Below, one piece after another: positions 926 through 32,295 of a DNA stretch of 54,981 nucleotides. Below the pieces are notes generated by a model that was given only the letters and a program-made list of their open reading frames with translations, was not told where the DNA came from and ran no database searches. The DNA comes from a virus (lineage: Duplodnaviria > Heunggongvirae > Uroviricota > Caudoviricetes). The position numbers and the translations under genes are program-made. The stretch is taken from the IMG/VR virus record IMGVR_UViG_2875697941_000003. The stretch is one strand, 5' to 3'. Position 1 is the stretch's first letter; the number at the start of each line of letters is the position of its first letter.

Positions 926-1204
926 GATGCTTTACGTCTTCCAAGCCCCCTTCCTTGCCGTAAATGGAAAGATACATCTAATTATAGAATTTATATGTTT
1001 TACCCTACGGCAGTGCTGGCCATTCAATATCCTGTGCAGTTGACGTATCAACACNNNNNNNNNNNNNNNNNNNNNGATGCTTTACGTCTTCCAAGCCCCC
1101 TTCCTTGCCGTAAATGGAAAGATACATCTAATTATAGAATTTATATGTTTTACCCTACGGCAGTGCTGGCCATTCAATATCCTGTGCAGTTGACGTATCA
1201 ACAC
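926..1204. repeat. Exact 129-bp tandem duplication (926-1054 and 1076-1204) split by a 21-N gap; probable assembly artifact
   Basis: Identical flanks on both sides of N run 1055-1075. Confidence 0.7.
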
Positions 1205-1880
1205 GGTTCAGCAATACCCGATACTTTTTCCATGCTTCCAGCAACGAGATTTCTTCCTCCGTTGCAATTTCCAGATCTGCAGCATCCTGAAGCGGCGCAA
1301 TATGCTCACTGGCTACCTGCATCAGGTTGTTTTTTGTTTCTTCCGCCTCCCGGATCCGGAACAGTTTTTCTGCTTCCGTATCCTTCACCCAGGCTGTGCC
1401 GTTCCACTTCTGATATTCCCCTCCCGGCGATAACCAGGTAACATTTTCCGGTAACGGACCGAGTTCAGAAATAAATAACGCGTCGCCGGAAGCCACGTCA
1501 TAGACGGTTTTTCCCCGATGATCTTCAACGAGATGCCACGATGCCTCATCACTGTTGAAAACAGCCACGAAGCCTGCCGGAATATCTGGCGGTGCAATAT
1601 CGGTACTGTTTGCTGGCAGACCTGTATGAGGCGGAATATATGCGTCACCTTCACCAATAAATTCATTAGTTCCGGCCAGCAGATTATAAATTTTTATGGT
1701 CCGTGGTTGTTCACTCATTCTGAATGCCANNNNNNNNNNNNNNNNNNNNNCGGTACTGTTTGCTGGCAGACCTGTATGAGGCGGAATATATGCGTCACCT
1801 TCACCAATAAATTCATTAGTTCCGGCCAGCAGATTATAAATTTTTATGGTCCGTGGTTGTTCACTCATTCTGAATGCCAT
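1155..1880 (-). CDS. tfaR: Tail fibre assembly protein (Tfa family); ORF inflated by an N-gap duplication
   Basis: Lambda Tfa-like N-terminus [24 protein letters not shown]... appears twice in the ORF because of the 1601-1879 duplication; lies directly downstream of the side tail fibre gene. Confidence 0.75.
1601..1879. repeat. Exact 129-bp tandem duplication (1601-1729 and 1751-1879) split by a 21-N gap; probable assembly artifact
   Basis: Identical flanks around N run 1730-1750. Confidence 0.7.
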
Positions 1881-4800
1881 TATGCAAGCCTCACAATATA
1901 GTTAAATGCGATGTTTTTGACGGTGTTTTCCGCNTTACCAGCAGCGTTAACGGTGATGGTGTGTCCATGTGAACCAATCGCAACGGAGTGCGTATGAGCA
2001 CCAATACCGACAGTATGCGCGTGTGCACCTGCAGATGCTGCTGTGCCGGACAGTGANTGGCTATGATTACCATCTGTACTGGTATTNGCTAACCACCCCG
2101 TAGACATACCTACTGAGCCTTGTACACCCCAGGTATTTTGACCTGAGCTTGTATAACCATATTGATAAGTATCTTTAAAAACACTGGGGTTAAATCGACG
2201 GCCATCTCTATGGCTGTGATTACCAGCTGCATTCGTGCTGCCACNNNNNNNNNNNNNNNNNNNNNAGCCTTGTACACCCCAGGTATTTTGACCTGAGCTT
2301 GTATAACCATATTGATAAGTATCTTTAAAAACACTGGGGTTAAATCGACGGCCATCTCTATGGCTGTGATTACCAGCTGCATTCGTGCTGCCACTTAAAC
2401 TATGAGTATGCGCACCAGTGTTATTCGTGGATTTAGTGCCGTAATCAAACGATGATGTGGTTTTCGTACCCAAATCCGTACTGGATACGCTGGCGCTGTG
2501 GGTGTGCGATTTAATGCCGTCCTGTTCCTGAGACAATACGGCACGACCACTGGCGGGCTTGCCCTTAATCGTCCAGCCACGCATATCAGGGATCACGCCT
2601 GACGGATAAGCGGCTGCAAGTTTCGGGTAAGCAGATTTGTCAAAAGTCTGCCCCTGCATCAGGGCATAACCAGACGGAACGGTATCTGATGGCCACGGGA
2701 TTGGTGCGCCGACTGGGTAGCTTTCTGGTGGAAGATTTTTCGAGGTATAAACTTCTGCCCAGTCTTCCTCAAAACCATAACCGTCTCTTGAAGAACGGTA
2801 GAACAGACCACCATTTCTGTAATGCGCCTTCATCTGCAGGGTCCGGCAACTTCCGACTCCGGTATAGAAGTTAACCAGAATATAGCTGTCGCCAGAGCGG
2901 GTGACATTGTAAGCGCCTGATTCGGCATTCCAGGGAACGCCACCATCCGCATCGGCATATGTATCCGTTGCCCTTCTGGCAAAAGCAGCCACATGCGCGG
3001 CGGTTAAAGTAATATCTTTTGAACCATCAAACTCAACCCCAGAAACCAGTCTTGGCGTTTGCAGCTTTGTTGCTGTCAATGCGTTACCGTTCAGACTTGC
3101 AGACAGCTTGGTTCCAATAACCAGTTCGCCGGTTGCGTTATCAATAGCAAACGGTCTTAATGTATTCCATCCACCATAAACATCACCTTGATTGGTAAGC
3201 AGCAGGTAAGTTTTAGCGCCATCATTACGCCATAATGCCCCATACTCCCCACCTATCATTCGAATCTGATTACCACCACGCGCTACAATTTCGTCTGTGG
3301 CAAAAAGTTTTTTGCACGACAAGTTATCGTTAACGATTAACGAATGAGACTCATAAAAACCACGCCCACTCTTAAAATCAAGGATAACGTCCGCCGCGAT
3401 ACATTCAGTCGCTGGATTTGTTGCCCCAAACTTATAGGTCGTATCATTAACAACGAGATCAGCACCAGGTGCGGATATTGACAGGCCATCTTCGATAAAC
3501 GCAAAAACAGGGAAAGCAGCGCCATCAACATAGAACACAGAGCGCAAATCATCGCCCTTATTACTCATCATTATTGAGTGGATGGCTCGTTCATTGTTTT
3601 GATATTGCCAGAACATTCCATAAGCATAACGCCCCCTGTCAGTCCAGCCACCAGGCATAACAAATCCGTTAAACTCGCAGTTATTCATCGGATCGCCTGC
3701 GGTTCGCGTTGCCGTGGTGATAATGACCCTTGATGCCAGTTCGCTTACTGAGCCAGCAGAACGCATAACAACAACAGGGTAATATTTTCCAGATGTTGCA
3801 CCTGCAGGAGCGTTAACCCGCACATAACGCATACCACGCTTATCAGCAAAGTCTGTTTTACTGACCGCGTTAATGTTGTTCAGGAAGCGTCCCTTATCGG
3901 GTATATCAGCGCCGTTCTGGTCTTTCTGCAGACGTTTCTCTGCATTGTCATAGGCTGATTTTACTGCCTTTGGCGTTGCCGCCAGCGTTTCAGACGTGCT
4001 GTTGGTCGCGCTGCTTAGCTGGATTATCCCTTTCTGTGCTGTCGTTGCATCCTGTGCGGTGTATTTCCCGTTAGCCAGGTCATACGCGGCCTTAACGGCT
4101 TTTGGCGTTGCCGCCAGTGACTCGGAAGTGCTATTGGTCGCACTGCTGAGCTGTACTATCCCCTTTTTCGTCGTGCTCGCATCCTCAAGCGCCACGGCGG
4201 ATGCAATATCCTCTGCCCGTTTTGCCGCTGTCTCAGCGCGCGTTGCCGCGGATTCCGCCGTACTTTTGCTCTGAGCTGCCGCCGTCGCACTGCCAGCTGC
4301 CTCTGTCGCCTTCGTGGATGCCGTCGTGGCGCTGCCCTTCGCTGCGGACGCTTGTCTGGTCGCCTCATCTTTTGAAGCAGACGCAGATGATGCCGATGAC
4401 GCCGCCGAACTGGCGGACGATGCGGCAGCCGTTTTTGAGGATTCTGCGCTGGTTTCCGACGCTTTCGCGTTCGTCTCGGATGTCTTCGCTGCGGAAGCAG
4501 ACCTCGCTGCTGCGCTGGCCTGTACAGCGGCTTCGCCAGCCTTCGTTGTGGCTGTTGAAGCGGACGATGCAGCACTTTCTGCCGATTTTCCGGCGGCGGT
4601 GGCACTGGCTGAGGCCTGCCCGGCACTTGTTGACGCGGCACTGGCAGACGACGCAGCCGCTGTTTTTGAGCCTGCCGCAGCTGAGGCACTCTGTCCCGCT
4701 GCCGTTTCAGAAGACCTGGCGTTTGTCTCAGACGTCTTTGCCGCCTTCGCGGAATTGCCTGCCGCCGTTGCCGAGGAAGCGGCACTACTGGCGCTTGATG

Positions 4801-5560
4801 ATGCGTTCGTTTCTGATGATTTCGCTGCCTCTTTTGAGGCCGCCGCATCCCGGGCTGAGGTGGCAGCTTCTGACGCTTTCGTGGTCGCGGTGGATGCTGA
4901 AGTGGCTGCTGATTGTTGTGACGCTGCCGCATTCGTTTCTGACGTTTTTGCCGCAGCGGCACTGGTGGCCGCCGCGCTTTTTGAGGACTCTGCAGCGGCA
5001 GCACTTTTTGATGCTTCAGTGGCCTTTGCTGATGCCGTTCCTGCGCTGGAAGACGCTGACTGAGCCGACGAAGCGGCCTGTCCGGCTGACGTGCTGGCTG
5101 CGCGTGCTGAGCCTGCAGCATCAGTCGCATGGGTTGCCGCCTCACGGGCAGATGTGCCGGCATCGCCGGCTGACTTCTTCGCGGCTGCCGTGTTCTGTGC
5201 CACTGCGGACGCGTTACGCGCCACCTCTTCCACCATCAGTTCAAAACGGCGCAGTGCCTCTGGCCGGACATCATCCTCCGTCATTGCACCGAGGAAATCA
5301 TTCAGTGTGCCCGGCTTTGAGTCCTCATATACGGTGATAATCCCGGCGTGTGACGGCGGGAATCCCTCCACCAACAGACTGACGCTGTACTGACCATACT
5401 CGACGTCCATTGTGTAACGCCCGGCTTCATCCGGGTTTTCTGAGGCCACTGTGTTCACCACCACCGTGGTGCTGTTGCGCCTGGCCTTTAGCTGAATGGT
5501 GCAGTTTTGTATCGGCTTACCTGCGCCATCTTTCAGTACACCTGAAATCCGTACTGCCAT
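1880..5560 (-). CDS. stfR: Side tail fibre protein (Stf-like): lambda-Stf-like N-terminus, Ala/Ser-rich repeat shaft, His-rich distal repeats
   Basis: N-terminus [38 protein letters not shown] matches lambda Stf; C-terminal [15 protein letters not shown]...[11 protein letters not shown]; contains N-gap duplication 2116-2394 and single Ns. Confidence 0.85.
2116..2394. repeat. Exact 129-bp tandem duplication (2116-2244 and 2266-2394) split by a 21-N gap; probable assembly artifact
   Basis: Identical flanks around N run 2245-2265. Confidence 0.7.
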
Positions 5561-5571
5561 ATTCCCCCCAC

Positions 5572-5598
5572 AAAAAAGCCCGCCTGAACCGGCGGGCT
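5572..5598 (-). terminator. Rho-independent terminator downstream of lom
   Basis: Minus-strand hairpin AGCCCGCC-GGTTCA-GGCGGGCT followed by TTTTTTGTGG. Confidence 0.75.
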
Positions 5599-5624
5599 GT
5601 CATAACACTGTGTTACCTGGCTAA

Positions 5625-6224
5625 TCAGAATTTATAACCGACACCAACGATGAAACTGTTGGTACGCCAGTCACCGCTGCCGGAGCCTTCATAAGCGACG
5701 TCAACGGCCACGGATTCGGTCGGGTTAAACTGCACGCCAGCTCCCCACGCCAGAGAGGTGTTACTGTGGCGAGCGTCATCACTTCCGGTCAGCACGTCGT
5801 GCGTTTTTCCCTTGTTGTCAGTTACGCGGAGATAATCCCCGGAAAAAGTCGACACACGGCTGTAAGCCACGCCTGCCATCGCATACGCGCTGAACCATTC
5901 ATTCACGCGTACAGACGGCCCCGCCATCACGCTGAACCAGCGGTTACGCACGGAATCTTCATGCCAGCGGGTATCGCTGTAACGGGTAAGCTGGCGATTC
6001 TTGTCTCCTGCATAGCTGAACGACGTCACCATCCCCAGTGTGTCCGTAAACTCATAACGGTATTTCACGTTAATCCCGTTCAGATCATCACTGCCGGGAA
6101 CGTTCGTCCGGGCATGAAGATACCCCGCGCTCAGCGTGGACTGATGTTCAGACGCCCATACAGGCGCACCGGATACGGCCAGACAAATGGCTGCGGACAA
6201 AATGGCTGCACAAACTTTACGCAT
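5625..6224 (-). CDS. lomR: Outer membrane beta-barrel protein Lom (Ail/Lom family), 199 aa
   Basis: Signal peptide, aromatic C-terminal residue (GYKF), lambda-Lom-like sequence and position between J and stf. Confidence 0.85.
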
Positions 6225-6248
6225 AATTACCTCTCGCTTTTCTGCAAT

Positions 6249-6273
6249 AAAAAAGGCGCCATTTCTGGCGCCC
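6249..6273 (-). terminator. Rho-independent terminator between J and lom
   Basis: Minus-strand hairpin GGGCGCC-AGAAAT-GGCGCC followed by TTTTTTATTG. Confidence 0.7.
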
Positions 6274-6291
6274 GTATATGGGTTATAAAAT

Positions 6292-9200
6292 TCAGCTGAT
6301 ACTGATGCCTGCGGTGGCTTTCTTCATCACCACAACCAGCAAATCGCTGATACTTGCTGTGGGATACCAGTCATTTACCAGCCATGCTGACACCGAAAAC
6401 TCCAGCGTCATGTGGCCGTGACCAGCTGGCATATCAATAACACCACTGTAAATCAGCGTATTATCCAGCGCGGTACGGTTATAAATTTCAGCACCATTTT
6501 TCTTCACTATCAGGCGGCATGAGGAGTAAATATCAGTATGCTCTCTCTCATGTTTAGCACCGCTGAATGCCACCGCCGGAATAACAATCTGCCGGTCAAA
6601 CGGCTGATCGTCATAAATCCTGACGGTAATGGTCCCTGATGGCCACCGCTCCGGTGCCCGGGAGTCCCGCGGGAAAGCCTTACCCACTGTTTTGACAATA
6701 TCGCCTTCAATCTGGTTGGCTGACAGTTTCCCTTTAATCTGACAGTTCTCATTTATCGTAACGTTGTTGAGCGTCCCGGCGTTCGCATTCACACTGCCAC
6801 TGATATCTGCATTTTTAGCGGTCAGCTTTCCGTCCGGTGTCATGGAAAATGCAGGAGGATTACCGCCGCTGGTAATGGTGGGAGCCGTCAGATATTTCAG
6901 GAACACTTCATTCATGAATATCTGATCACCCTGACCAACAAACATCGGTTTTGTGTTGCCATTTGCAGGATTAATCATCGCAATCCTGTCTGCCGCCAGC
7001 AGCACCTGACTCTGCATGCCGTCGGGGGTGTTCTCAATACCGGCACCGATACCCGCAATATAAAGGCGTCCGTCCTGCATCTGCTGCAGCTTCACAGCCC
7101 ACATGCTGTTCAGATTATTATTTGTATCAACCTGAACCTTCTGTATCTGCTGGATCGCTGCACTCTGGTCTTCCAGTTTCTTATTGACGGTCTGTGTGAT
7201 TTCATTGCTGACATCCGTAATGGACGTCCTGATTTCAGCCAGGTCAGGCGCAAGCTGACCGTTATCAATCTGCGTCCACAGCTCCTGAGCCAGATGGGTT
7301 TTCCCTATCTCGCCTTTGAAAAAATCCAGATAGCCGGATGCGTCATCACTCGGCTGACCAACAGCCTCCACGAATGCCGATTTGCCAACGGTGTTCACAC
7401 TGCGAACGTAAAAATAATAATTATGGCCCGGCCTGATATTGATACTGGCGGCTATCCAGTACAGCGCCGTACCAAGATAGCGGGCTGTGGTTTCAACCTG
7501 CCTGATATCCGCAATCCGCTTTTCCGAGAACCAGAACTCAAACTGTACCGTCGGGTCATAAACGGCAAGATGCGGCGTGGCGGTTATCTGAAAATAGCCC
7601 GGCGTCAGCTCAAGCCGCGACGGCACTGCAGGTGCGGCAATCCGGAACGATACCGATGCCGGATCGCCCTGCTGCCCCCACGCATTTACCGCCCGGACTG
7701 TCAGCCTGTAGTTCCCTGGCGCCAGCTGCGTGAAGCGGTATGTGGTTTCCGTCGTCCGGGCCGTGCTGACCAGCCGCTCACTGCCGTCATCCGCTGCCAC
7801 GGTCAGGCGAAGCAGGAAGCTCACGCCCTTCACCACCTTCGGCGTGTCCCAGCGCGCCAGCACCTGATATTCCCCGCTGTCTGCGGTGACTTCGGCGGTC
7901 AGGTGCTGCACCGCTGGCGGCGTGACACCATTCACCGTGCCGCTCTGGTCGCCGTCAAAGTGCGCCCCGTTATCCACGATGGCTTCTTTTTCCGGTACAT
8001 GCTGCACGGCAGTGATGGCATACGTGCCGTCATCGTTCTCACGGATACTCACACAGCGGAACAGGCGCTGGCGCAGCGTCGGCAGCTTCAGCCCCCACAC
8101 ACTGTATTCTGCAACGCCGTCAGGAACCCGGTTCACTTTCACCTTAAGTCCGTCGGTGACGGACTGAACCTCCACGCTGACCGGATTACCACTTCCGTCA
8201 ACCAGGCTTATCAGCGTGGTACCGGAGGATGGCAGCGTGATTTCACGGTCGAGCGTCAGCGTCCGGGTCTGGCTGTTCACCGCCAGCACGCGACCACCGG
8301 TGCTGATACCGGCATAGTCATCATCGCAGATTTCAATGACATCCCCCGGTACATGGCGAAGCCCTTCCGCACCCACGCTGAAGTCCACGGTCTGCGTCTC
8401 CAGCAGTTCCGTTTTAATCAGCCACAGCCCGGCGCGGTGTGCCTGCCCCCGGCTGGTACAGCCAAAGGCATCCATCTTCGTGACATTACGACCGTAACGG
8501 GCAATGGCCTGCGTATCTTCAACAAGCTCTGTCGCCGTCTCCCAGCCGTTGTCCGGGTCAATCCAGTTCACCTCAACGGCATTATGGCGGTCCTTCAGGG
8601 CGCTGAAGCTGTAGCGGAACGGCGCGCCATCATCCGGCATCACCACATTACTGCGGTTATAGGTCCACACCTTATCCGACGGTCGGTCCTGCNNNNNNNN
8701 NNNNNNNNNNNNNCAGTTCACCTCAACGGCATTATGGCGGTCCTTCAGGGCGCTGAAGCTGTAGCGGAACGGCGCGCCATCATCCGGCATCACCACATTA
8801 CTGCGGTTATAGGTCCACACCTTATCCGACGGTCGGTCCTGCACGAACGTCAGCGTCTGCCCGTTCCATACCGGCATACAGCGCATCGCCGAGCAGAAAT
8901 CACTGAGCACATCCCACGCCTTGCGCTGTGTGGTCAGGTACGCATTACAGGTGATGCGCGGCTCCGTGCCGCCAAAGCCGTCCGGCACTGACTGGTCGCA
9001 GTACTGGCCGATGACATACAGCGCCCATTTGTCCACATCCGCCGCACCAAGACGTTTCCCCANNNNNNNNNNNNNNNNNNNNNTCAGGTACGCATTACAG
9101 GTGATGCGCGGCTCCGTGCCGCCAAAGCCGTCCGGCACTGACTGGTCGCAGTACTGGCCGATGACATACAGCGCCCATTTGTCCACATCCGCCGCACCAA

Positions 9201-10207
9201 GACGTTTCCCCATGCCGTAGCGTGGATGGGTCAGCATATCCCACAGACACCAGGCCATGTTATTGCTGTATGCTGGCTTAAACGTTCCGTCCCAGATACC
9301 GCTGTATTGCCGAGTCTGCGGGTTATAGTTCGACGGCACCTGCAGAATACGCCCGCGCAGATGATAATTACGGCTCACCTGCTGGCTGCCGAACTGCTCC
9401 GAATCCACCTGTACGCCGACCAGTGCCGTGTTCGGGTAGCACTGTTTCACATCGATGATTTCGGTGTATGACGACCAGAGCGTTTTGTTCTGCAGCTGGT
9501 CTGTGGTGCTGTCCGGCGTCATCCTGCGCATCCGGATATTGAACGGGCGCGGCGGCAGGTTACCCACCACCACCGATGCCAGATACTGCGAGGTGGTTTT
9601 GCCTTTAATGGTGATGTCTTTTTCCGTCACCCAGCCACCATTACGCTGTATCTGAACCAGCAGGCGGACTTCCGACGGATTCCGGTCCCCCTTTGAGGTG
9701 GTTTCCACCAGTGCCTGCACACCGAAGGTAAAGCGCAGACGGTCGATGTTTGCCTTTTTCCGTCACCCAGCCACCATTACGCTGTATCTGAACCAGCAGG
9801 CGGACTTCCGACGGATTCCGGTCCCCCTTTGAGGTGGTTTCCACCAGTGCCTGCACACCGAAGGTAAAGCGCAGACGGTCGATGTTTGCCGACGTGATGG
9901 TCCTGGTAATCGGCGTGTCGTACTTCACTTCCGTACCCAGCACCGTCTCGGAGCCGGAGGATTCAAATCCCTCCGGCGGTGTCTGCTCCTGCTCACCGGC
10001 CCGGAACACCACCGTGACGCCGGATATATTGGTATTCCCCTCACTGTCCAGCACCGGCGTACTGTTCAGCAGCACGCTTTTTAATCCGTCCACCGGACCT
10101 TCAACCGGCCCTTCGCTGATGGCATCGATCACACTCAGCAGCTGCGTGGACTTCAGGTTGTCCTTCGCTTCGCGCGGGGTATGCCCCTTACTGCTGCCTT
10201 TACCCAT
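6292..10207 (-). CDS. Tail tip / host-specificity protein J (central tail fibre); frame broken in this sequence by duplications
   Basis: Lambda-J-like sequence throughout; ORFs 6292-9720 and 9641-10207 are two pieces of one gene split by the 136-bp tandem duplication at 9619-9890; two N-gap duplications also lie inside. Confidence 0.85.
8564..8842. repeat. Exact 129-bp tandem duplication split by a 21-N gap (Ns 8693-8713); probable assembly artifact
   Basis: Identical flanks on both sides of the N run. Confidence 0.7.
8934..9212. repeat. Exact 129-bp tandem duplication split by a 21-N gap (Ns 9063-9083); probable assembly artifact
   Basis: Identical flanks on both sides of the N run. Confidence 0.7.
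9619..9890. repeat. 136-bp perfect tandem duplication without Ns (9619-9754 and 9755-9890) inside J; shifts the frame
   Basis: Direct comparison of the two copies; 136 is not a multiple of 3. Confidence 0.7.
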
Positions 10208-10267
10208 TCGTCATGCTCCATAAACGATAAAACCGCCCGGAGGCGGTTTCACATAAAACATTTTGCA

Positions 10268-10909
10268 TCAGCGACCAATCACCACAACCTGACCACCATC
10301 CCCTTCGTCTGCCGTGCTGATCTCCTGAGAAACCACGCGTGACCCCACGCGCATTTCACCGTACAGAACCGGCAGAACATTGCCCTGGGCAACCATGTTA
10401 TCCAGTGAAGAAAAATAGGTATTCTGTTTGCCGTTATCCGTTGTCTGTGTGCGGGGGGTTTTGGGTTTAGGGGCCAGCATCTGTGCAACACCGCCAAGCG
10501 TCATACTGGCACCGAGAGAAAACAGCAGATTACTCGCCATAATTCCTACCCCCGGCATCCATATAGCAACCGCCATAACAGCCGCCCCCAGCACAGCCTG
10601 AAACACACCGCCACTTTTGGCTCCTGCCAGACGCGGCACGATATGGATCACGGCACCATTTTCCAGCGGCTCATTAAGACGGGCAGACAATTCGGTTTCA
10701 CCTGCATCACGCCCGGCAATCCGTACCTGATACCAGCCGTCGCTCAGTTTCTGACGAAATGCCGGGATCTGCATGGCCAGCGCCCGGATGGCTTCGGACC
10801 CCGTTTTCACTCGAAGGTCGATGCGGCGGCCAAATCGTTGTAAATCCCCGTAAAGGCAGATGCGTGCCATGCCCGGTGACGCCAGAGGGAGTGTGTGCGT
10901 CGCTGCCAT
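10268..10909 (-). CDS. Tail assembly protein I
   Basis: Lambda-I-like sequence with C-terminal hydrophobic segment; position between K and J. Confidence 0.8.
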   Translation of the reverse strand: MAATHTLPLASPGMARICLYGDLQRFGRRIDLRVKTGSEAIRALAMQIPAFRQKLSDGWYQVRIAGRDAGETELSARLNEPLENGAVIHIVPRLAGAKSGGVFQAVLGAAVMAVAIWMPGVGIMASNLLFSLGASMTLGGVAQMLAPKPKTPRTQTTDNGKQNTYFSSLDNMVAQGNVLPVLYGEMRVGSRVVSQEISTADEGDGGQVVVIGR

Positions 10910-11153
10910 TTGTCGGTGTACCTCTCTCGTTTGCTCAGTTGTTCAGGAATATGGTGCAGCAGCTCGCTGTCACCACAGTAAATGGCGGCATGATTCGGCA
11001 CCGATGAACCAAAACAGCACGGAGTGTGTGCGTCGCTGCCATTTGTCGGTGTACCTCTCTCGTTTGCTCAGTTGTTCAGGAATATGGTGCAGCAGCTCGC
11101 TGTCACCACAGTAAATGGCGGCATGATTCGGCACCGATGAACCAAAACAGCAC
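10888..11153. repeat. 133-bp perfect tandem duplication without Ns (10888-11020 and 11021-11153) at the K/I junction; shifts the frame
   Basis: Direct comparison of the two copies. Confidence 0.7.
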
Positions 11154-11683
11154 AGCAGCACATCGCCCGGCTGCGCCGCTGACAACGGCACCTGATACAG
11201 CCCTGTGGCCTCCAGATTATCCAGATAGAGATTCTGACCGTTACGCCACCAGTCATCCCCGCGATGAAAATCCGGCATCTCAATTCCCGCCAGATGGTAA
11301 GCGTCCCGGAACAGCGTGTAACAGTCCGTTACCCCGTGCTCAAAGCGCCGCCCGGTGAGATGCGGCACACAGCGGAATTTATGAATCGCCCCCCGGCAGA
11401 CCAGCCACCACGGCAAATCACTCTGTACCTGCAGCCGCCGGTCGGCCTCACTCAGCCAGGGCAGACCACCGGGGTGGCTGTGGACCAGCGCCACAATCTC
11501 TCTCTGCATTTCTGCACTCAGCCAGTCCTCCGGCGACATCCGGAAATACTCCTCCGGCTCACCGGAGATATTCACGCAGGGAAAATATCTTTCCTCCTCC
11601 GGCGTTCTCACCACGAAGCCGCACGACTCCGCTGGCGCACATCGCCGGGCGTGCGCCAGAATCGCTGATTCTGTCTCTGTCAT
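10970..11683 (-). CDS. Tail assembly protein K (MPN/JAB plus NlpC/P60-like); C-terminus displaced by the 133-bp duplication
   Basis: Lambda-K-like sequence including HSHPGG motif; the authentic C-terminus continues in ORF 10807-11001. Confidence 0.8.
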   Translation of the reverse strand: MTETESAILAHARRCAPAESCGFVVRTPEEERYFPCVNISGEPEEYFRMSPEDWLSAEMQREIVALVHSHPGGLPWLSEADRRLQVQSDLPWWLVCRGAIHKFRCVPHLTGRRFEHGVTDCYTLFRDAYHLAGIEMPDFHRGDDWWRNGQNLYLDNLEATGLYQVPLSAAQPGDVLLCCFGSSVPNHAAIYCGDSELLHHIPEQLSKRERYTDKWQRRTHSVLFWFIGAESCRHLLW

Positions 11684-11688
11684 GGGAT

Positions 11689-12387
11689 TTACTGCGAAAG
11701 TTTGTTAATGGAAAGGAAGCTGCCAAAGTTGCCGACATTATTGCGAAACTTACAGCCACTCAGGCATTTGCTGCATTTATCCTTCGTGATATCGGACGTC
11801 GGCTGGTCATATTCATCCGCGACCGCCGGACCGCTATAACCGCACTCATCGCCGCGATAGGTCCAGGTGCAGGTGTTGGCCAGCATGATACGTCCCGGAA
11901 AAACAGCGCCATCCGTTTCAGTCGGCGTGGACAGTACAAAAGAGGCACTGACCGCGCTCAGTTCGCTGCACTGCTCGATGCGCCAGCGGCTGATCACCTC
12001 CTGCTCCGGATCGGCTTCGCTGTTTCCGTTGACGAAGTTCACCGCATCCAGAAAGCGGGCGTAAACCTTACGCCGGACCACCGTTCCGCCGACCAGACTC
12101 TGCAGATCTTCCGCCATCCCGGTGATCATGCCGTGCAGGTTAGAGACCGTCAGTGTCGGACGGGCAGCACTGCCCTTGCCGTTCATCTCAAATCCACTCC
12201 CCTGAATGGGATAGGCCTGATACTGCCGACTCTGCCAGGTGACAGACTCACCTTTTTCGTTCTGCTCATTACAGAAAAAGTAGCGATCCCCGCCTACCTC
12301 GGTCAGGTCGATTTCCCAGAGCACCACGCTGGCCGACTGCTCCGCACGAATGCATTCATTCAGCGTTTCCTGTTGTATGTCCTGCAT
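11689..12387 (-). CDS. Tail tip protein L
   Basis: Lambda-L-like sequence, C-terminal Cys cluster, gene order. Confidence 0.8.
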   Translation of the reverse strand: MQDIQQETLNECIRAEQSASVVLWEIDLTEVGGDRYFFCNEQNEKGESVTWQSRQYQAYPIQGSGFEMNGKGSAARPTLTVSNLHGMITGMAEDLQSLVGGTVVRRKVYARFLDAVNFVNGNSEADPEQEVISRWRIEQCSELSAVSASFVLSTPTETDGAVFPGRIMLANTCTWTYRGDECGYSGPAVADEYDQPTSDITKDKCSKCLSGCKFRNNVGNFGSFLSINKLSQ

Positions 12388-12725
12388 CAGATCACCACTT
12401 CGTCAAACTGACACGAAAAATCGGTATAGGTGATATGTTCTGTCGCTGACCACGTTCGACACACCACTCTGATTTTTCTGTTAATACCCGGCGGGCGCCA
12501 AAAAAAAGATTTATAGCCTTCATGCCGGGCTAAAAATTTTTCAAATGAATCACGTTCATTCGCCTCAACTTTGAAATCACAGGTGAAAACGCGCAGAGAA
12601 TGATTAAGTCCATTTGGACTTCGTTGCTCATAACCATCGCCAAATCTTACAGTTTTTATCGATGGTTTATTTTCTGTTTTCATTCCATCCTCTGGTAACC
12701 AGTGAAATTCTTCCGTATTAGCCAC
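12387..12725 (-). CDS. Minor tail protein M
   Basis: Lambda-M-like ([10 protein letters not shown]... / FDEVVI C-terminus); position between H and L. Confidence 0.8.
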
Positions 12726-15700
12726 TTAACATTCCCCCATCACGTCGCATATTTAACAGATTGCCCTGCACCCGCTGATCAACCATCCCCATAAGTGCTT
12801 TTATTGCCTGAGGGCCAATCTCTCCATTCTGGCCGTCATTTTGAATAGTGATTTGGTATACAGGGGCATAGGTAATATCTCCGCCTCCATTACCACTTTT
12901 ACTATTAATAGCTCTGACACCAAGAGAACCATCGGAAGTTCGTGTTAATGGCATAATGGCTTCCGGTCCAGCCTCACCAAAAACACCAGCCCCTTTTGCA
13001 AAAGCAAAAAATTGCGGGGAATCATAAATACCGTTCGAATACGTGCTCAATGACGGAGACTCATAAACACCGCCCTTTGCATTCGGAATAAATTTACTAA
13101 TAGCACTCCCGATAGTTCCTAAAATCCCCCCAGAAGAACTGTTACTAATGCTGTCGAAAATCCCAGTAATTGAAGCCTTTAATGCTATTCGACTAAGATC
13201 CGAAATCACGGAAGTAGCGAAAGAACGAAAATTTGCCTTGCCTGTCGTGACAAAATCACCCAGCGCATCGGTCATCCCATCAAACATCTGAGTCGTGGTT
13301 GATTTTATCTGCTCACTGATATCCTTAGTGTCATCCAGCCAGTTATTGAATCCCTGGGAGGCACCACTAACCCAGTCTCCTGCCTGAATATCGAGCTGCT
13401 CGTTTTTCTGTCTGACAATTTCTTTTTCCCGTTCCAGAGCATCATTCAGAGCCTGCATTTTCTCTTGAAAAACATGATCTGACATTCCACGGGATTTATC
13501 TGCATAGTCACGTTCAAGTTGCAGACGCTGATTGTTATATCCATGTTCAATCCGCAGTAATTCCTGCTGGCGTTGCTGATTTTTATCGCCAACCCCATAA
13601 CCAGCAATCTGAATATCATACCCCTGCTGACGATTATCAATCGAAGCCTGCAATGAATCACGCCATGCTGTTATTTCGGCGGATTCCTTGATTAGCCTGT
13701 TATTTTTTTCAATCGCAACATTTTTCTCCATCAACGTGGTTATTTCTTCCCGGTGTAAGAGAAGCGATTTCTGATCCTGGGTTAATTTCGATGATGGTCG
13801 TGACTCTAGGTCGGCAATCCGCTGACGCCACTTAACCAGTTCCTGTTCAGAGGAACTTAATTTAACGGTCAACTCAGCTTGTGAACTTAGTAACGCATTC
13901 TGTTGATTCAGATGATCAATCATTCGTTGGGCTGCATCATCAGAATAATCTTTCGCCTTTGGTTGCTTTGGATCTTTATAACGCTCATTTATTTGAGCGA
14001 TAAGATTATTATATTCTTCCTTTGAATACTGATTCTTTAGCTTTTCCAGTTTTGCAAGTTCACTAGCTCTCTGCTGCTCCCGGGTCTGATATTGTTTTGA
14101 AAAGGCATCTGCTCTCTGTCTGAGTTCAATTCCTTCCTGTTGTCGCTTGTTGTAATCGTTTATTGATGAATTTAGTACGTCCTGAGCAATTTTTTCTGCT
14201 TGAAGTACGCCCAATTGCTGCTTTAATCGTGCCAGCCTTTTATTTTGAGCTCCGCCATCTCCAATGCCACCTAACCCGAAAACTCCGGATCGGGTATTTT
14301 TTTCTATTTCATCAATTTGACGGAGAACATCTGAGATTTTTTGATCAAGGGAGGCCTCACGGCCAATATCCAGCATGGAATCCCATGCCCATTTTGCGGA
14401 GTCTGCGACAGCTTTCCATGCAGTCTCAAGATAACCAAGATTTTCTTTAATCTGGTTGGTGCGCTGGATCATTGAGGATGAGTATTCTTCTGTCGCAATG
14501 CGGGCGGCCTCCTGCTGGTTCCCTTCATCCTGTAGCGCCTTAATCTGGTTATAAGTCGCAAGTGTCAGAAAATGGTACTGATCATTAAGTTTTGATATGG
14601 CACTGACAGGATCCTTTGCAATTTCATTGAAGTCATTAACCAGTTGTTCGGTTGATATTCCTGTTACTTCGCTCGTTTTTACTATCGCTGTCGTCACTTG
14701 CTCCAGCGAACTGCTCGCTACCTTTCCCGAACGCACAAGCTGATTTAATACTGCCGCCGCAGCACCAGTTGTCGAATCAGCCGCATTCCCGGCACGTTGA
14801 GCTAAATCGCCCAATTGCCCGCTGGTTGTCCCCAACTGATTTCCGGTAAGAATAAGAGATTTATTAAATTCGTCCTGCTCCTGAGAGCCTTTATAGTAAG
14901 CCAGTCCTAAGACCCCAACGGCTGCTGCGGCCAGGGTAAAAGGATTAATTAATCCCAGCACATAAGAACCTACCCCTTTGATCGCCGGGCCAATCCCACC
15001 GAACATATCTTTTAGCTGGCCGCCCTGCTGCATTAACACCATAAATGGCGACTGACCAGTGGACAACCCAACAACAATATCCGTCATTTGTGCAGGCAAC
15101 ATGCGCATAGCAAAAGCCGTTTGTTTTGCCGACATTCCGGTTTTGCTTAATTGTGATTGAGTAACCTCAAGCTCACTCCGCATAGCACGAAGTTTTCCAG
15201 AAAGCTCCTCATACATTTCAGGAGAAAGCATCCCCTTAGCTTTTGCTTCATTGAGCTGTTTCTGTTGTTCTACCAGACGATTAAAAGCAGTTCCGACAGG
15301 ATCAAGTTGAGCAATCAGACGTTGCAAAGCAACAACCTGTTCATCATGCGCTTTTGCTGCTTCTCGCTCTGCCTGAGCCTCTCCGGTAAGCTCTCGCCGT
15401 GTTTCCTGTATTTTTCGGCTATAATTCTCAAACTGAGAACCATTTATTTTCCCGGATGCAAACGCAGCATTAAGTTCATCATGCTGTTGTTCAAGATTTC
15501 TTAGCGCCGCAGCCAGAGGGTCGATCTTGTCCAGCATTCTTTGAAAGGCCTGAGCCTGCGCTTCCTGCTGGGCGGCAGCAAGTTTTCCGGCCTTCTCGGC
15601 TTCTCTCTGCGCTTGCGCAACCCCGCTCAATTCCTCTGTGGTTTCATTAAGTTTACGGACAAGAAATTCATATTCTTCTTTATCAATAAGCCCTTTATCG

Positions 15701-15951
15701 AAAAATTTCTTTAATTCAGAATAGCGTCGACCGACAGTATCAATTGCGGCACCAACTGGATCAATAGCTGCTTTTAATTTTGCGAGCGCGTTCTTCTCAT
15801 CTTCTGTTGCCTTAGTCACTTTCCCTGCGCTATTTGCAGCAGTTTCCCCAGCCTGCGTCATTTTGACTAATGAGGAGGTCAGATTGTCAGCATTATTTTT
15901 CGCTCCAGTGCTATCAATAATTATTGCGAGACGCGAGGTTTGCTCTGCCAT
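12718..15951 (-). CDS. Tail tape measure protein (H-like), 1077 aa
   Basis: Length, coiled-coil-rich composition, position between G/GT and M. Confidence 0.85.
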
Positions 15952-16116
15952 TTATTAAAACTCCTGACAACAAAAAACCCACCGCGAAGTGGGTTTCAGG
16001 CGACATAATAGTAGATATAGCGATTACGAGGCCACGCAATGCTTTTCTCCAGGAGCATCATCGATTTAATTAAAGACACCATCACATCTCTGTAACAGAG
16101 TGTACGTAATTAACAA

Positions 16117-16886
16117 CTACACACACTGCTCCTGAAAATACTGGTCATCCAGTGCAAAGATCACTGCTTCAAATTCATCGCGCTCAATCAATACCGGATG
16201 AGTGGCTAAATATTCATTTATCTCTGTCAGAGATAAAGGCAAAGGCACCCCAGCCATTCCAGCATAACGTCGGGCACGGGATATTACCGAATAGGCGTAC
16301 AACAACTCCTTAAGCACCGGGTCTATTTCTGGTTCCGGTATCGGTGGCAACCTGAGTTTTTCTCGCTTCCATCTTGCCTTTTCCCCCCTTTCTCCCCCGA
16401 ACTCCGATAACCACCGCTGGGCAGCTATGGCTTTTTTATCGTATCCTGCTTCTGCTGCTCTTTACCCTGGGCGATGCTGGCTGCTTCTGCAAGGATCTGC
16501 CAGTACAACTCTGGATTCTGCTTAAGCAGCGCGATCCCTCGTTCTGCCGTATATTCCAGTGCAACCTCAACACCATTAACCAGTTCACCAACCCCTTTCC
16601 AGTCTTTCAGCAGATAACGAGCGGCATTATCAATGAGTAAATCATCAACAGAATCCACCTCGGAAACCTTTGAAATATCAAACTCCTTCGTTCCGACGTG
16701 CAAACTGGCATCCATTTTCTCAATGTGGCGACGGATTAATGCATTACGGGAGCGATACTGATCGTTATCGCTGCTTGCCACCAACAGTTTTAACCCGTCT
16801 ACAGGTTTTAAGTCCTTCATTGGCGTAAACCAGCGTTCTCCACCAATGATAATTTTCTGATTAAGAATAAACATCCATAACCTCAT
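16117..16886 (-). CDS. Tail assembly chaperone G and G-T fusion made by -1 programmed frameshift (G = 16425-16886; T extension to 16117)
   Basis: Two overlapping ORFs between major tail and tape measure genes; T frame is -1 relative to G and open from the slippery site to 16117. Confidence 0.7.
16431..16437 (-). promoter_or_regulatory. Slippery heptamer A AAA AAG for the -1 frameshift, one codon before the G stop
   Basis: Minus-strand sequence ATA AAA AAG CCA TAG; after a -1 slip the frame reads AAA AAA GCC ATA GCT... with no stop until 16117. Confidence 0.65.
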
Positions 16887-16934
16887 TCAATGCGTCCCCC
16901 TGTAGGGCAGTACCACAGGAGGAATAACGGAAAA

Positions 16935-17897
16935 TCAACTAATCGCCTCAGCACTGGCTTTTGCGATCACGGCAGCCGGGGAATTTTTTTTTCTGGTTAT
17001 CGTAGGTGCTTCATCTGCTGCGGTAATGCTCAATTGAACCTGGATAATGTCGCTATTACCCCCATCAGGCCATTCACCTGACACCTGAACCTTCGGGAAA
17101 CTGAAAGTGTATGCCCCCTCTCCATTCGAAAGCGTGAAGCTGAACGGAACTGTTTCTCCAGTCAGTGTTTTACTCCAGATTTCCCACGCGGCTTTAGACC
17201 ATGAAAGCGTCACCGTACCGGACGGTGTAAAAGTAGTCGGAATATTTGCTCCTGCATAAGGCGAGCCAGTCCCGATACAACGCTGTGTCTGGAGTTTGTT
17301 ATCGAACTGAATATCAAAACTGTCGATACAAAAACCGTTACCTCCGGCAACACCATTCAGGCTTACTGCTGAAACCTCCTTAAACGAATAACGTAGCTTT
17401 CCTGCACTATCCACAGGTTCGCCTTTGATAAAATTCGTATCATCGGCCTTTGATTCCCAGTCCAGTCCGGCAAAGGTTACGGTCGCTGTAATATCGCCGT
17501 CGTTAGGGATCTGCATTTTCCATGAGCCAACCTGCGCTCCTCTGACGACAGAGGCAATTCCGACATCGGACGCATAGGTCGCCAGAGAAAATGTTATTCG
17601 CTCATTCCCCATTGTCAGAGAATCGCCTGACCATTCCGCGCCGAAACAGGATGCAAGAAAATCATCATGTTGACCCCAGCGAAATTTGGTACCAACATCA
17701 CCGCCGACATCCACAGTGCCAGGCGTCGCCCCCTGAGCCATCCGGGAGCCACCAATCTCATTATTTTCGCCTTTATTCTGGGTGGGTTTTACTCCCCAGC
17801 TTGTGCGTTTTAATAAACTCCAGTCACCACTTGCTGGCGTAGTGCCTGCAACCGTCTCCCGGATAAATGCCGAGATAACCTTTGCACCTGAACTCAC
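16935..17897 (-). CDS. Major tail tube protein (V-like), 320 aa
   Basis: Position upstream of G/GT, size, Ig-like C-terminal region. Confidence 0.6.
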   Translation of the reverse strand: MSSGAKVISAFIRETVAGTTPASGDWSLLKRTSWGVKPTQNKGENNEIGGSRMAQGATPGTVDVGGDVGTKFRWGQHDDFLASCFGAEWSGDSLTMGNERITFSLATYASDVGIASVVRGAQVGSWKMQIPNDGDITATVTFAGLDWESKADDTNFIKGEPVDSAGKLRYSFKEVSAVSLNGVAGGNGFCIDSFDIQFDNKLQTQRCIGTGSPYAGANIPTTFTPSGTVTLSWSKAAWEIWSKTLTGETVPFSFTLSNGEGAYTFSFPKVQVSGEWPDGGNSDIIQVQLSITAADEAPTITRKKNSPAAVIAKASAEAIS

Positions 17898-17923
17898 AGG
17901 AGCCTCCTATGTCATTAATTGCG

Positions 17924-18316
17924 CTAGAGCGCGCGATATGGAATTTGAAGATTAAGCTGGAACCAGCCATTCTTTTCGCCAACGGCTATTGAGGAAACAG
18001 CCTGGTAACTGAGACGATCGTCATCCTGAAACTCAAACAGTTCCCGCAATTTATCGGCTGTCTCAGTAATGAGTTTTGAACCAGAACCTGCGGGGACAAA
18101 TAACTGAATAATGATTATCCCCGTGCGATAAACAATCGGCCCCGCGCCAATTTCATTAACTCCAGCCTGCCCGGGAATATTACTTAACCGCGCCCAGATT
18201 AACTTACCGGAAGGATCGAACGTTGGCGCGTTCGGATACAATACGTCTTTTCCATCAATAATCGTCTGTGCCGTCATTCTGGAAATAACCGTATTTCTGA
18301 TTTCAGTAAACGTCAT
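17924..18316 (-). CDS. Tail terminator / tail completion protein (U-like)
   Basis: Size and position between head-tail joining genes and major tail gene. Confidence 0.5.
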   Translation of the reverse strand: MTFTEIRNTVISRMTAQTIIDGKDVLYPNAPTFDPSGKLIWARLSNIPGQAGVNEIGAGPIVYRTGIIIIQLFVPAGSGSKLITETADKLRELFEFQDDDRLSYQAVSSIAVGEKNGWFQLNLQIPYRAL

Positions 18317-18693
18317 TTGTAAGCCTGTAAAACACCATGAAAAGCGTTGGCATACACGCCAGTTGGCGCTTGTTGTGAATGACCGTTTTCAAGAGCCTCT
18401 GCATAAGGAAGGTTATTCTGGATATAAATAACTCCGTAATTTGCAGCTTTCGAAATAACCCCGATCCCACGCTGAACAGCAATCGTACCGTTCGGATCCA
18501 CGTTATCAGATATACCAAAATCGGGATGCTGTAACGACACCAGGTTGTTATTTCTGAAACGTCCGGTATCAACCGGAGCAGCAATATCAATAGCAGTAAG
18601 AATCTGAATAGCGATGTAGCGAATCTTCAGCCCTACATCTTCCTCAATCATCCCGGCAAATATTGACGGTTCTATATCCCATGCCTTTGCCAT
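18313..18693 (-). CDS. Head-tail joining protein (Z-like / HK97 gp10-like)
   Basis: Size and position; overlaps neighbours by 4 nt. Confidence 0.5.
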   Translation of the reverse strand: MAKAWDIEPSIFAGMIEEDVGLKIRYIAIQILTAIDIAAPVDTGRFRNNNLVSLQHPDFGISDNVDPNGTIAVQRGIGVISKAANYGVIYIQNNLPYAEALENGHSQQAPTGVYANAFHGVLQAYK

Positions 18694-19472: not shown

Positions 19473-19475
19473 GTG

Positions 19476-19652
19476 TTACTCCTGAGTTTTCCAGCCCATA
19501 GCCTTCCAGTTGTCAACTTCATCAGGATGAACATTAGCGATAGTTGGTGCGCCGGGAAACATCTGATAATCGGTCACCATAACCACTAACTCAATTTGCG
19601 TTTTTTGTGCGGCTTCACGCTGTGCTCTTTGCTCTTTAGTTAATCCGGCCAT
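19476..19652 (-). CDS. Small hypothetical protein (58 aa) between capsid and head-tail genes
   Basis: ATG preceded by GGGGGG RBS; stop lies 3 nt before the next gene start; below the ORF-track length cutoff. Confidence 0.45.
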   Translation of the reverse strand: MAGLTKEQRAQREAAQKTQIELVVMVTDYQMFPGAPTIANVHPDEVDNWKAMGWKTQE

Positions 19653-19661
19653 ATGCCCCCC

Positions 19662-19684: not shown

Positions 19685-19694
19685 GTTTGAATGT

Positions 19695-24304: not shown

Positions 24305-24306
24305 AA

Positions 24307-30325: not shown

Positions 30326-30802
30326 TTACTTTAAACACTGCTCGGTTATGTATTGCTGAGCACCTTCAAGTTGGGCCTGCATCATTACCAGTCGTTCCCG
30401 GAGGGTGAAATAATCCCGTTCAGCGGTGTCTGCCAGTCGGGGGGAGGCTGCATTATCCACGCCGGAGGCGGTGGTGGCTTCACGCACTGACTGACAGACT
30501 GCTTTGATGTGCAACCGACGACGACCAGCGGCAACATCATCACGCAGAACATCATTTTCAGCTTTCGCATCAGCTAACTCCTTCGTGTATTTTGCATCGA
30601 GCGCAGCAACATCACGCTGACGCATCTGCATGTCAGTAATTGCCGCGTTCGCCAGCTTCAGTTCTCTGGCATTTTTGTCGCGCTGTTCTTTGTAGGCGAT
30701 GGCGTTATCACGGTAATGATTAACACCCCATGACAGGCAGACGACGATGCAGATAACCAGAGCGGAGATAATCGCGGTTACTCTGTTCATTGCTGACCCC
30801 AC
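30326..30802 (-). CDS. Spanin inner-membrane subunit Rz (i-spanin)
   Basis: Near-identical to lambda Rz (N-terminal TM, coiled coil). Confidence 0.9.
30385..30570 (-). CDS. rzoR: Spanin outer-membrane lipoprotein Rz1 (o-spanin), nested in +1 frame inside Rz
   Basis: [23 protein letters not shown]... lipobox plus PPPPP stretch, lambda Rz1-like. Confidence 0.85.
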
Positions 30803-31200
30803 AAACAGATTTCACGCTCAATCTCACGACGAGTCATGAGACCTTTCCATTGCTTACCGCCAGCATATGTCCAGCGACGTAGCTGATCACATGCGCCTTT
30901 GATATCGCCCTGGTTTATTTTGCGAAGAAGCGTCGATGTTCTGAAATTGCCAGCACCCACGTTGTAAACGAATGAGTANTTCGTGTATTTTGCATCGAGC
31001 GCAGCAACATCACGCTGACGCATCTGCATGTCAGTAATTGCCGCGTTCGCCAGCTTCAGTTCTCTGGCATTTTTGTCGCGCTGGGCTTTGTAGGTAATGG
31101 CGTTATCACGGTAATGATTAACAGCCCATGACAGGCAGACGATGATGCAGATAACCAGAGCGGAGATAATCGCGGTTACTCTGTTCATTGCTGACCCCAC
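30787..31200 (-). other. Chimeric duplicate segment: Rz N-terminus (73 codons), single N at 30979, then endolysin C-terminus; probable misassembly
   Basis: ORF translation switches from Rz sequence to R sequence at the N; the copy differs from the full Rz by a few substitutions. Confidence 0.6.
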
Positions 31201-31679
31201 AAACAGATTTCACGCTCAATCTCACGACGAGTCATGAGACCTTTCCATTGCTTACCGCCAGCATATGTCCAGCGACGTAGCTGATCACATGCGCCTTTGA
31301 TATCGCCCTGGTTTATTTTGCGAAGAAGCGTCGATGTTCTGAAATTGCCAGCACCCACGTTGTAAACGAATGAGTAAAGAGCGCCGCGCGTTGTTTCCGG
31401 TATATCGACTTNGATGTACGGGTTAATTTGTCTGGCGACNGTGGCAAGGTCTTTATTCAAGAGTGNTTTGCATTCTGCTTTGGTATACGTTTTACCGAGC
31501 ATGATGTCTTTTCCTGTATGCCCGTGACATACAGTCCATACACCAACAATATCTTTGTATGGTATGTAGCTGACACCTTCCAGACCATCGTTACCACTTG
31601 GGCCAGTGATTAACACTGATGCTATAGCAATTGCTCCGCCACCAATAGCAGCAACGGCTTTTCGTAATGATGGAGGCAT
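31185..31679 (-). CDS. SAR endolysin (phage 21 R21-type, T4-lysozyme-like muramidase with N-terminal signal-anchor-release domain)
   Basis: N-terminus [26 protein letters not shown] (Gly/Ala-rich SAR TM) and C-terminal lysozyme sequence match R21; three internal Ns. Confidence 0.85.
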
Positions 31680-32080
31680 TATTCACCTCTCGCAGCCTTG
31701 CGCTTATCTTCTTTAATCTTGAAATAAAGGTTTGTCAGGTACGTCAGCAGGCCAAATACCAGGCTACCCAGCACACCTATTGCTGCCCACTGTGAGGGCG
31801 TGACTTTATCGAGCAGCTGTAAAAACCAGTAACCGGCACTACCTGCTGANTTATTCAAGAGTGTTTTGCATTCTGCTTTGGTATACGTTTTACCGAGCAT
31901 GATGTCTTTTCCTGTATGCCCGTGACATACAGTCCATACACCAACAATATCTTTGTATGGTATGTAGCTGACACCTTCCAGACCATCGTTACCACTTGGG
32001 CCAGTGATTAACACTGATGCTATAGCAATTGCTCCGCCACCAATAGCAGCAGCAACGACTTTTCGTAATGATGGAGGCAT
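31679..32080 (-). other. Chimeric duplicate segment: endolysin N-terminus (76 codons), single N at 31850, then pinholin C-terminus; probable misassembly
   Basis: ORF translation switches from R to S sequence at the N; copies differ by substitutions (VVAAA vs AVAA; LLDKV vs LLDRV). Confidence 0.6.
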
Positions 32081-32295
32081 TATTCACCTCTCGCAGCCTT
32101 GCGCTTATCTTCTTTAATCTTGAAATAAAGGTTTGTCAGGTACGTCAGCAGGCCAAATACCAGACTACCCAGCACACCGATTGCAGCCCACTGTGACGGA
32201 GTTACTCTATCGAGCAACTGTAAAAACCAGTAGCCAGCACTGCCTGCGGAGGTGCCGTAGGCAATGCCTGTTGAAATTTTGTCCATGGATTTCAT
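32080..32295 (-). CDS. Pinholin S21-type (class II holin) with dual-start motif
   Basis: [26 protein letters not shown]... matches phage 21 S21; two Met codons (32295 and 32286) behind a strong SD GGAGGTGA. Confidence 0.85.

What the first reader, a model, noticed from the sequence alone, without database searches (positions are those of the whole stretch)
9619..11153. Two N-free perfect tandem duplications (136 bp and 133 bp) that frameshift J and K
9619-9754 is repeated at 9755-9890, splitting J into two ORFs; 10888-11020 is repeated at 11021-11153, displacing the K C-terminus. Both lengths are not multiples of three. If real they would inactivate essential tail genes in an otherwise intact prophage, so they are more likely the same artifact class as the N-gap duplications. 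If real, the prophage is tail-defective.
Basis: seen in the sequence. Interest (0 to 1): 0.45.

Follow-up and report, generated by a model that had tools for sequence, protein, structure and literature searches.

The report
Assembly-join duplications, not real mutations
The two perfect 136-bp and 133-bp tandem duplications that appear to break the prophage tail genes J and K are almost certainly places where overlapping contigs were pasted end to end without merging, so the finding is an assembly error and not biology.

Summary
9619-9754 equals 9755-9890 (136 bp) and 10888-11020 equals 11021-11153 (133 bp). Both are 100% identical, N-free and out of frame, and they truncate J and K.

- The window comes from GenBank CP035322.1 (GCA_004116695.1).
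- Aligned to a complete E. coli chromosome carrying the same Rac-type prophage, the window falls into 10 collinear tiles.
- Every one of the 9 tile boundaries steps back in the reference: 129 bp five times (each with 21 N), 136 bp and 133 bp (no N), and about 397 bp twice (each with 1 N).
- At least 11 complete genomes are 100% identical across 9300-11500 and are exactly 269 bp (136+133) shorter.
- Probes spanning each duplication junction find nothing in 5,426 complete E. coli genomes or 50,697 phage records.
- The frameshifted K protein is on record on only this one contig.
- Deleting the second copies restores J (1159 aa), I (200 aa) and K (247 aa) identical to RefSeq proteins.
- The region is multi-copy in E. 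coli (median 3 places per genome), which is where short-read contigs break.

Read-level proof is not available here. Probability of artefact is about 0.95. Interest is low.

The parts
9619..9754 (.). Copy 1 of the 136-bp unit. It is the last 136 bp of assembly tile 9084-9754 and corresponds to J nucleotides 318-453.
9755..9890 (.). Copy 2 of the 136-bp unit. It is the first 136 bp of tile 9755-11020. The false junction lies between 9754 and 9755.
   Evidence: The junction 50-mer is absent from complete genomes and phages.
10888..11020 (.). Copy 1 of the 133-bp unit. It is the last 133 bp of tile 9755-11020 and corresponds to K nucleotides 531-663.
11021..11153 (.). Copy 2 of the 133-bp unit. 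It is the first 133 bp of tile 11021-30978. The false junction lies between 11020 and 11021.
   Evidence: The junction 50-mer is absent from complete genomes and phages.
6292..10207 (-). Tail tip / host-specificity gene J as it stands in this record. It is broken by the 136-bp join and carries two in-frame N-gap joins. Collapsing the joins gives a 1159-aa J identical to WP_032202219.1 of strain a15.
   Evidence: (Pfam FNIII-A_GpJ, Phage-tail_3, Ig_J, Phage_Tail_Tip, Ig_GpJ_C)
10268..10870 (-). Tail assembly gene I (200 aa, Pfam Lambda_tail_I). It is intact and the duplication does not touch it.
10807..11683 (-). Tail gene K (Prok-JAB + NlpC/P60 'C40 family peptidase') as it stands, 744 + 133 bp. 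Collapsing the join gives a 247-aa K identical to WP_001349612.1.
8564..9212 (.). Two N-gap joins inside J: 129 bp + 21 N + the same 129 bp, at 8564-8842 and 8934-9212. They bound a 349-bp tile and are the nearest flagged members of the same join series.
926..2394 (.). Three further 129 + 21 N + 129 joins (926-1204, 1601-1879, 2116-2394) in the pinR / tfaR / tail-fibre region.
30582..32250 (.). Two joins of about 397 bp, each with a single N (30979, 31850), around an 870-bp tile that is 97% identical to the reference. They falsely duplicate the lysis genes.

Best explanation
Both duplications are assembly artefacts. The deposited chromosome (GenBank CP035322.1) was built by laying contigs in order. 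Wherever two neighbouring contigs shared their ends, the shared stretch was written twice instead of once. In this 55-kb window that happened at all nine contig joins. Seven joins still carry a gap marker (21 N or 1 N). At the two joins in J and K no N was left, so they look like clean tandem duplications. The contigs break in this region because the J-I-K tail module is present in several nearly identical copies in most E. coli genomes. The real prophage most likely has intact J, I and K genes. Shown here: the step-back structure at every join, single-copy sequence in independent identical genomes, absence of the junctions elsewhere, and restoration of intact proteins on collapse. Inferred: that the tiles are contigs, and which software step left no N.
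For: (1): blastn of the window against strain a15 (NZ_CP122492.1, same Rac-type prophage) gives 10 collinear blocks. At every boundary the reference coordinate steps back by 129, 129, 129, 129, 129, 136, 133, 397 and 397 bp. The 136 and 133 steps are the two reported duplications. They lie in the same dense run of joins as the N-flagged ones (8693, 9063, 9755, 11021). (2): all five 21-N gaps are flanked by perfect 129-bp duplications, so this assembly demonstrably writes overlaps twice. 133 and 136 are close to 129. (3): at least 11 complete genomes match window 9300-11500 at 100% in 3 pieces spanning 1932 bp, which is 2201 minus 269 (136+133). (4): a probe made of the two junction 50-mers (25+25 nt each, so only a junction-spanning 28-mer can seed a match) finds no junction-spanning match in 5,426 complete E. 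coli genomes or 50,697 phage records. (5): the frameshifted 237-aa K product is on record on exactly one contig, CP035322.1, which is the window itself. (6): deleting the second copies restores J 1159 aa, I 200 aa and K 247 aa, identical residue for residue to the RefSeq proteins of strain a15. (7): the junctions have 1 and 0 bp of microhomology, as expected for arbitrary concatenation. (8): the collapsed 2.7-kb J-I-K region occurs in 4,527 of 5,426 genomes at a median of 3 and up to 14 places per genome, mostly at 93-97% identity. This is the kind of repeat at which short-read contigs end. None of the listed full-length matches is 133 or 136 bp longer.
Against: No reads are available, so the junctions have not been tested directly. 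The two joins differ in signature from the flagged ones: no N, and 136/133 bp instead of a constant 129 bp. They must therefore come from a somewhat different step of the pipeline, for example a gap declared closed, and I could not identify that step. Absence from other strains does not by itself exclude a private mutation of this strain.
Confidence: 0.95

Rival explanations
1. Both duplications are real private mutations of this isolate. Two independent short tandem duplications frameshift J and K and leave the Rac-type prophage unable to build a tail tip.
For: The copies are clean, N-free and directly adjacent, as real tandem duplications are. Cryptic prophages do accumulate inactivating mutations (general knowledge). 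The signature differs from the N-flagged joins.
Against: This requires two independent events of nearly the same size (133 and 136 bp) 1.1 kb apart. Both would have zero divergence and 0-1 bp of microhomology. They sit in an assembly with seven other step-back duplications in the same 55 kb, and immediately after two flagged joins in the same gene. Neither junction occurs in 5,426 complete genomes or 50,697 phage records. At least 11 genomes with 100% identical flanks are single-copy.
Confidence: 0.03
2. Mixed case: one of the two is real and the other is an artefact, or the duplication exists only in a subpopulation of the sequenced culture and the assembler picked it up.
For: Nothing specific. 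It is simply not excluded without reads.
Against: The evidence is the same as for the main rival. The two joins have the same signature as each other, which argues for a common cause.
Confidence: 0.02

Closest known systems
False duplications in genome assemblies (unmerged or under-collapsed contig overlaps at joins and gaps; the class is reviewed for vertebrate assemblies in Genome Biol 2022;23:205, PMC9516828)
   Same: An identical stretch is written twice at a contig join. It creates apparent gene disruptions or gains that are absent from better assemblies. It is concentrated at repeats and gaps.
   Different: Here the scale is very small (129-397 bp) and the genome is a haploid bacterial chromosome. 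The cause is therefore not heterozygosity or long-read error but plain non-merging of overlapping contig ends. Two of the joins carry no N to flag them.
Lambda-type tail tip module J / I / K of lambdoid (Rac-type) prophages of E. coli
   Same: Gene order M-L-K-I-J-lom-tail fibre. Pfam families are Prok-JAB + NLPC_P60 (K), Lambda_tail_I (I) and Phage-tail_3 / Phage_Tail_Tip / Ig_GpJ_C (J). RefSeq names in strain a15 are given. The surrounding genes are the Rac markers recE, racC, kilR, sieB, trkG, pinR and tfaR.
   Different: Nothing biologically different once the joins are collapsed. The proteins are identical to those of other strains.
Genuine short tandem duplications that pseudogenise prophage genes
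   Same: A head-to-tail direct repeat whose length is not a multiple of three gives a frameshift.
   Different: Genuine ones are normally isolated events, often with junction microhomology, and are reproducible in independent sequence data. These are two of nine step-back joins in one assembly and are seen nowhere else.

Membership tests
Assembly false duplication (unmerged contig overlap) | The two copies are identical and the second copy begins exactly where a collinear alignment to an independent assembly steps back | tested here: met
   100% identical copies; step-backs of 136 and 133 bp at 9754/9755 and 11020/11021.
Assembly false duplication (unmerged contig overlap) | The same assembly shows the same defect at joins that are explicitly flagged as gaps | tested here: met
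   five 21-N gaps each flanked by a perfect 129-bp duplication, and two 1-N joins with step-backs of about 397 bp. Nine of nine joins in total.
Assembly false duplication (unmerged contig overlap) | Independent assemblies of the same sequence carry the unit once, and the junction is found nowhere else | tested here: met
   at least 11 genomes at 100% identity are 269 bp shorter; no junction match; the K variant is on one contig only.
Assembly false duplication (unmerged contig overlap) | The joins fall in sequence that is repeated in the genome, so contigs end there | tested here: inconclusive
   the J-I-K region is multi-copy in E. coli generally (median 3 places per genome, 4 in strain a15). 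The other copies in the source genome itself could not be inspected.
Assembly false duplication (unmerged contig overlap) | No sequencing read spans the junction, and read depth over the unit is that of single-copy sequence | not testable with these tools
Genuine tandem duplication / pseudogenised J and K | The junction is reproducible in independent data from the same or related strains | tested here: not met
   absent from all other records searched. Reads of the isolate itself were not testable.
Genuine tandem duplication / pseudogenised J and K | Junction microhomology typical of slippage or illegitimate recombination | tested here: inconclusive
   1 bp and 0 bp, no more than chance. This does not favour a real event but is not decisive.
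Lambda-type tail tip genes J, I, K | Characteristic domains and gene order | tested here: met
   Pfam hits on record for the called genes; RefSeq annotation of the identical locus; collapsed products identical to those proteins.

The most novel reading that the evidence does not exclude
The duplications are real. This isolate's Rac-type prophage would then have acquired two independent out-of-frame tandem duplications of about 135 bp in J and K and would be tail-defective, a very recent step of prophage decay.
Probability: 0.03. Interest if true: 0.15.

Novelty: not a real feature. Interest (0 to 1): 0.04.

Why it matters
It matters only as a data-quality warning. A GenBank record labelled as a chromosome contains unflagged, N-free false duplications that create false pseudogenes in J and K, as well as a falsely duplicated lysis cassette. 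Pipelines that score prophage intactness, count pseudogenes or call structural variants would be misled. Screens that look only for N-flanked duplications would miss these two. There is no new biology.

Tried and rejected
(1) 80-mer junction probes were uninformative. The search tool joins the two 40-nt halves, which lie at opposite ends of the single-copy unit, into one 'place' spanning 137 or 133 bp. I replaced them with 25+25-nt probes. In those searches the hits at query 22-52 or 25-52 are the natural left flank plus a chance 2-nt extension, not the junction.

(2) An exact look-up of the truncated J N-terminal product (188 aa) found nothing, because no gene was called there in the source record (gene table). 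The K variant look-up succeeded.

(3) CP035322.1 / NZ_CP035322.1 and the neighbouring NZ_CP035321.1 are not in the annotated collections, so I could not inspect sister assemblies for the same defect.

(4) No paper cites CP035322. Neighbouring accessions are strains BR02 (CP035320) and BR03-DEC (CP035321), so the record probably belongs to that batch. I could not find the strain name or the assembly method.

(5) I considered that 129 + 21 = 150 points to a read-length-bound, partial gap-filling step. On that idea, gaps of 136 and 133 would have been 'filled' completely and so lost their Ns. This is speculation and could not be tested.

(6) I considered real slippage duplications and rejected them as unlikely, for the reasons given under rival explanations.

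Full report
OBSERVATION. The window sequence, Tandem Repeats Finder and a direct string comparison all confirm the finding. 9619-9754 is repeated exactly at 9755-9890 (136 bp), and 10888-11020 is repeated exactly at 11021-11153 (133 bp). Both have 100% identity, no indels and no N. The identity run of the first begins one base earlier (9618), so its junction has 1 bp of ambiguity or microhomology. The second has none. Both lengths are 1 mod 3.

On the minus strand, J (start at 10207) keeps 151 correct residues and then runs 37 residues out of frame to a stop (ORF 9641-10207). The remainder of J is the ORF 6292-9720. K (start at 11683) keeps 221 correct residues and then 16 out-of-frame residues (ORF 10970-11683). 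Its true last 26 residues are displaced into a 64-aa ORF at 10807-11001. The I gene (annotated start at about 10870) is not touched.

CONTEXT IN THE WINDOW. The window contains 119 N. Among them are five runs of exactly 21 N (1055, 1730, 2245, 8693, 9063) and several single Ns. Each 21-N run is flanked by a perfect 129-bp direct duplication, 129 + 21 N + 129 with a spacing of 150 (families D6-D10). Single Ns at 30979 and 31850 sit between duplications with a period of about 398 bp (D1-D3). This record therefore demonstrably writes overlapping ends twice.

SOURCE. An exact-sequence look-up of the frameshifted K product returns one contig in the whole index: NCBI GCA_004116695.1, CP035322.1, 5,052,397 bp. 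The fetched stretch (L002) is byte-identical to window 970-21683, so the window is part of that record. The record is not in the RefSeq complete-genome collection available here. Neighbouring accessions belong to strains BR02 and BR03-DEC. I could not find the strain name or the assembly method of CP035322.

COMPARISON WITH INDEPENDENT ASSEMBLIES. Window 9300-11500 matches at least 11 complete E. coli chromosomes at 100.0% identity. The match is always in three pieces that together span 1932 bp of the record, which is 2201 minus 269 = 136 + 133.

I fetched the locus from strain a15 (NZ_CP122492.1; L001). It is a Rac-type lambdoid prophage: pinR, tfaR, tail fibre, lom, J, I, K, L, M, tape measure, head genes, terminase, trkG, lysis genes, then sieB, kilR, racC and recE.

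blastn of the whole window against L001 gives ten collinear blocks:
- 1-1054
- 1076-1729
- 1751-2244
- 2266-8692
- 8714-9062
- 9084-9754
- 9755-11020
- 11021-30978
- 30980-31849
- 31851-end

At every one of the nine boundaries the reference coordinate steps back, by 129, 129, 129, 129, 129, 136, 133, 397 and 397 bp. The two reported duplications are simply joins number six and seven of this series. They bound short tiles of 671 and 1266 bp, immediately after the two N-flagged joins in the same gene.

The seven short overlaps are all 100% identical. The 870-bp tile 30980-31849 is only 97% identical to the reference (21 mismatches, one 3-bp indel). It looks like a contig from, or collapsed with, a paralogous prophage lysis cassette. 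In the tiles that contain them, the single Ns are the only differences from a15. This again points to a mixed consensus of paralogous copies.

JUNCTION TEST. My first 80-mer junction probes were uninformative because the tool joins the two halves. I then used a probe made of the two junction 50-mers, with 25 nt on each side, so that only a junction-spanning 28-mer can seed a megablast hit. No junction-spanning match exists in 5,426 complete E. coli genomes or in 50,697 phage records. The short hits at query 22-52 or 25-52 are the natural left flank of the unit. The collapsed 2.7-kb region is found full-length and in one piece in thousands of genomes, and none of the listed matches is 133 or 136 bp longer.

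REPAIR TEST. Deleting the second copy at each short join, and the Ns, yields J of 1159 aa, I of 200 aa and K of 247 aa. These are identical residue for residue to WP_032202219.1, WP_000090943.1 and WP_001349612.1 of strain a15.

WHY THERE. The J-I-K region occurs in 4,527 of 5,426 complete genomes, at a median of 3 and up to 14 places per genome, mostly at 93-97% identity. That is the classic situation in which short-read contigs terminate. All nine joins lie in prophage modules that are typically multi-copy (pinR/tfaR/tail fibre, J, K, lysis genes), and none lies in the cargo genes at 36-44 kb. I could not inspect the paralogous copies in the source genome itself, so this step is inferred.

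MECHANISM. Shown: the record is a chain of segments whose ends overlap and are written twice. Inferred: the segments are contigs ordered by a scaffolder or against a reference. At seven joins a gap marker was left. At two joins no N remained, possibly because a gap-closing step declared them closed. The constant 129 + 21 = 150 hints at a read-length-bound partial fill, but I could not test this. The general class, false duplications at assembly joins that produce false gene gains or disruptions, is documented (PMC9516828).

RIVALS. Real private tandem duplications cannot be excluded without reads. They would require two independent events of nearly equal size 1.1 kb apart, with zero divergence and 0-1 bp of microhomology, in a record with seven other step-back joins in 55 kb, and absent from every other genome, including those with identical flanks. 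I give this about 3%, plus about 2% for a mixed case.

VERDICT. It is not a real biological feature. The prophage's J, I and K are most likely intact. The value lies only in flagging that this record contains N-free false duplications that create false pseudogenes.

Noticed in passing
window 30582-32250: The lysis cassette (Rz-like gene, rrrD lysozyme, essD holin) appears duplicated. An 870-bp tile (30980-31849) is only 97.2% identical to strain a15 (21 mismatches and a 3-bp indel) and is flanked by single Ns (30979, 31850) with step-backs of about 397 bp. It is probably a contig from, or collapsed with, a paralogous prophage copy, so the extra lysozyme ORFs are false.
   Followed up: partly
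window 65, 260, 366, 618-619, 661, 1934, 2057, 2087, 31412, 31440, 31466: Isolated N calls are the only differences from strain a15 in their tiles. They look like ambiguous consensus positions where reads from paralogous prophage copies (pinR/tfaR and the lysis genes) were mixed.
   Followed up: partly
window 926-1204, 1601-1879, 2116-2394, 8564-8842, 8934-9212: Five joins of exactly 129 bp + 21 N + the same 129 bp. The period of 150 is a multiple of three, so ORFs such as the J C-terminal part read through them with X residues. 129 + 21 = 150 may reflect read length, but this is unverified.
   Followed up: partly
window 26473-26547: Imperfect 12/24/36-bp tandem repeats rich in TGCGCA lie inside the 5' part of the small-terminase gene (25589-26683, minus strand). 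They could be a pac-like packaging site, as in phages whose pac lies within the small-terminase gene.
   Followed up: no
window 45522-45556: TCTTTATCTGTA repeated 2.9 times (95% matches) lies inside the 358-aa ORF 44921-45997 (minus strand), next to the DUF977 gene. It is iteron-like and might mark a prophage replication origin inside a replication gene, as lambda ori lies in O.
   Followed up: no
window 3947-4185: A 107-bp direct repeat at 76% identity and 132-bp spacing lies inside the tail-fibre gene (1880-5560, minus strand) (D11). It is a genuine, diverged internal repeat and a useful contrast to the 100% identical artefact repeats.
   Followed up: no
whole window (CP035322.1, about 3.70-3.76 Mb): The window is a Rac-type prophage with a full lambda-like tail module, P22-type capsid and terminase genes, and cargo genes (trkG, an MFS transporter, a BCCT transporter). 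It is nearly identical (at least 99.9% in the large tiles) to a prophage in pig, poultry, dog and human E. coli isolates from several countries.
   Followed up: partly
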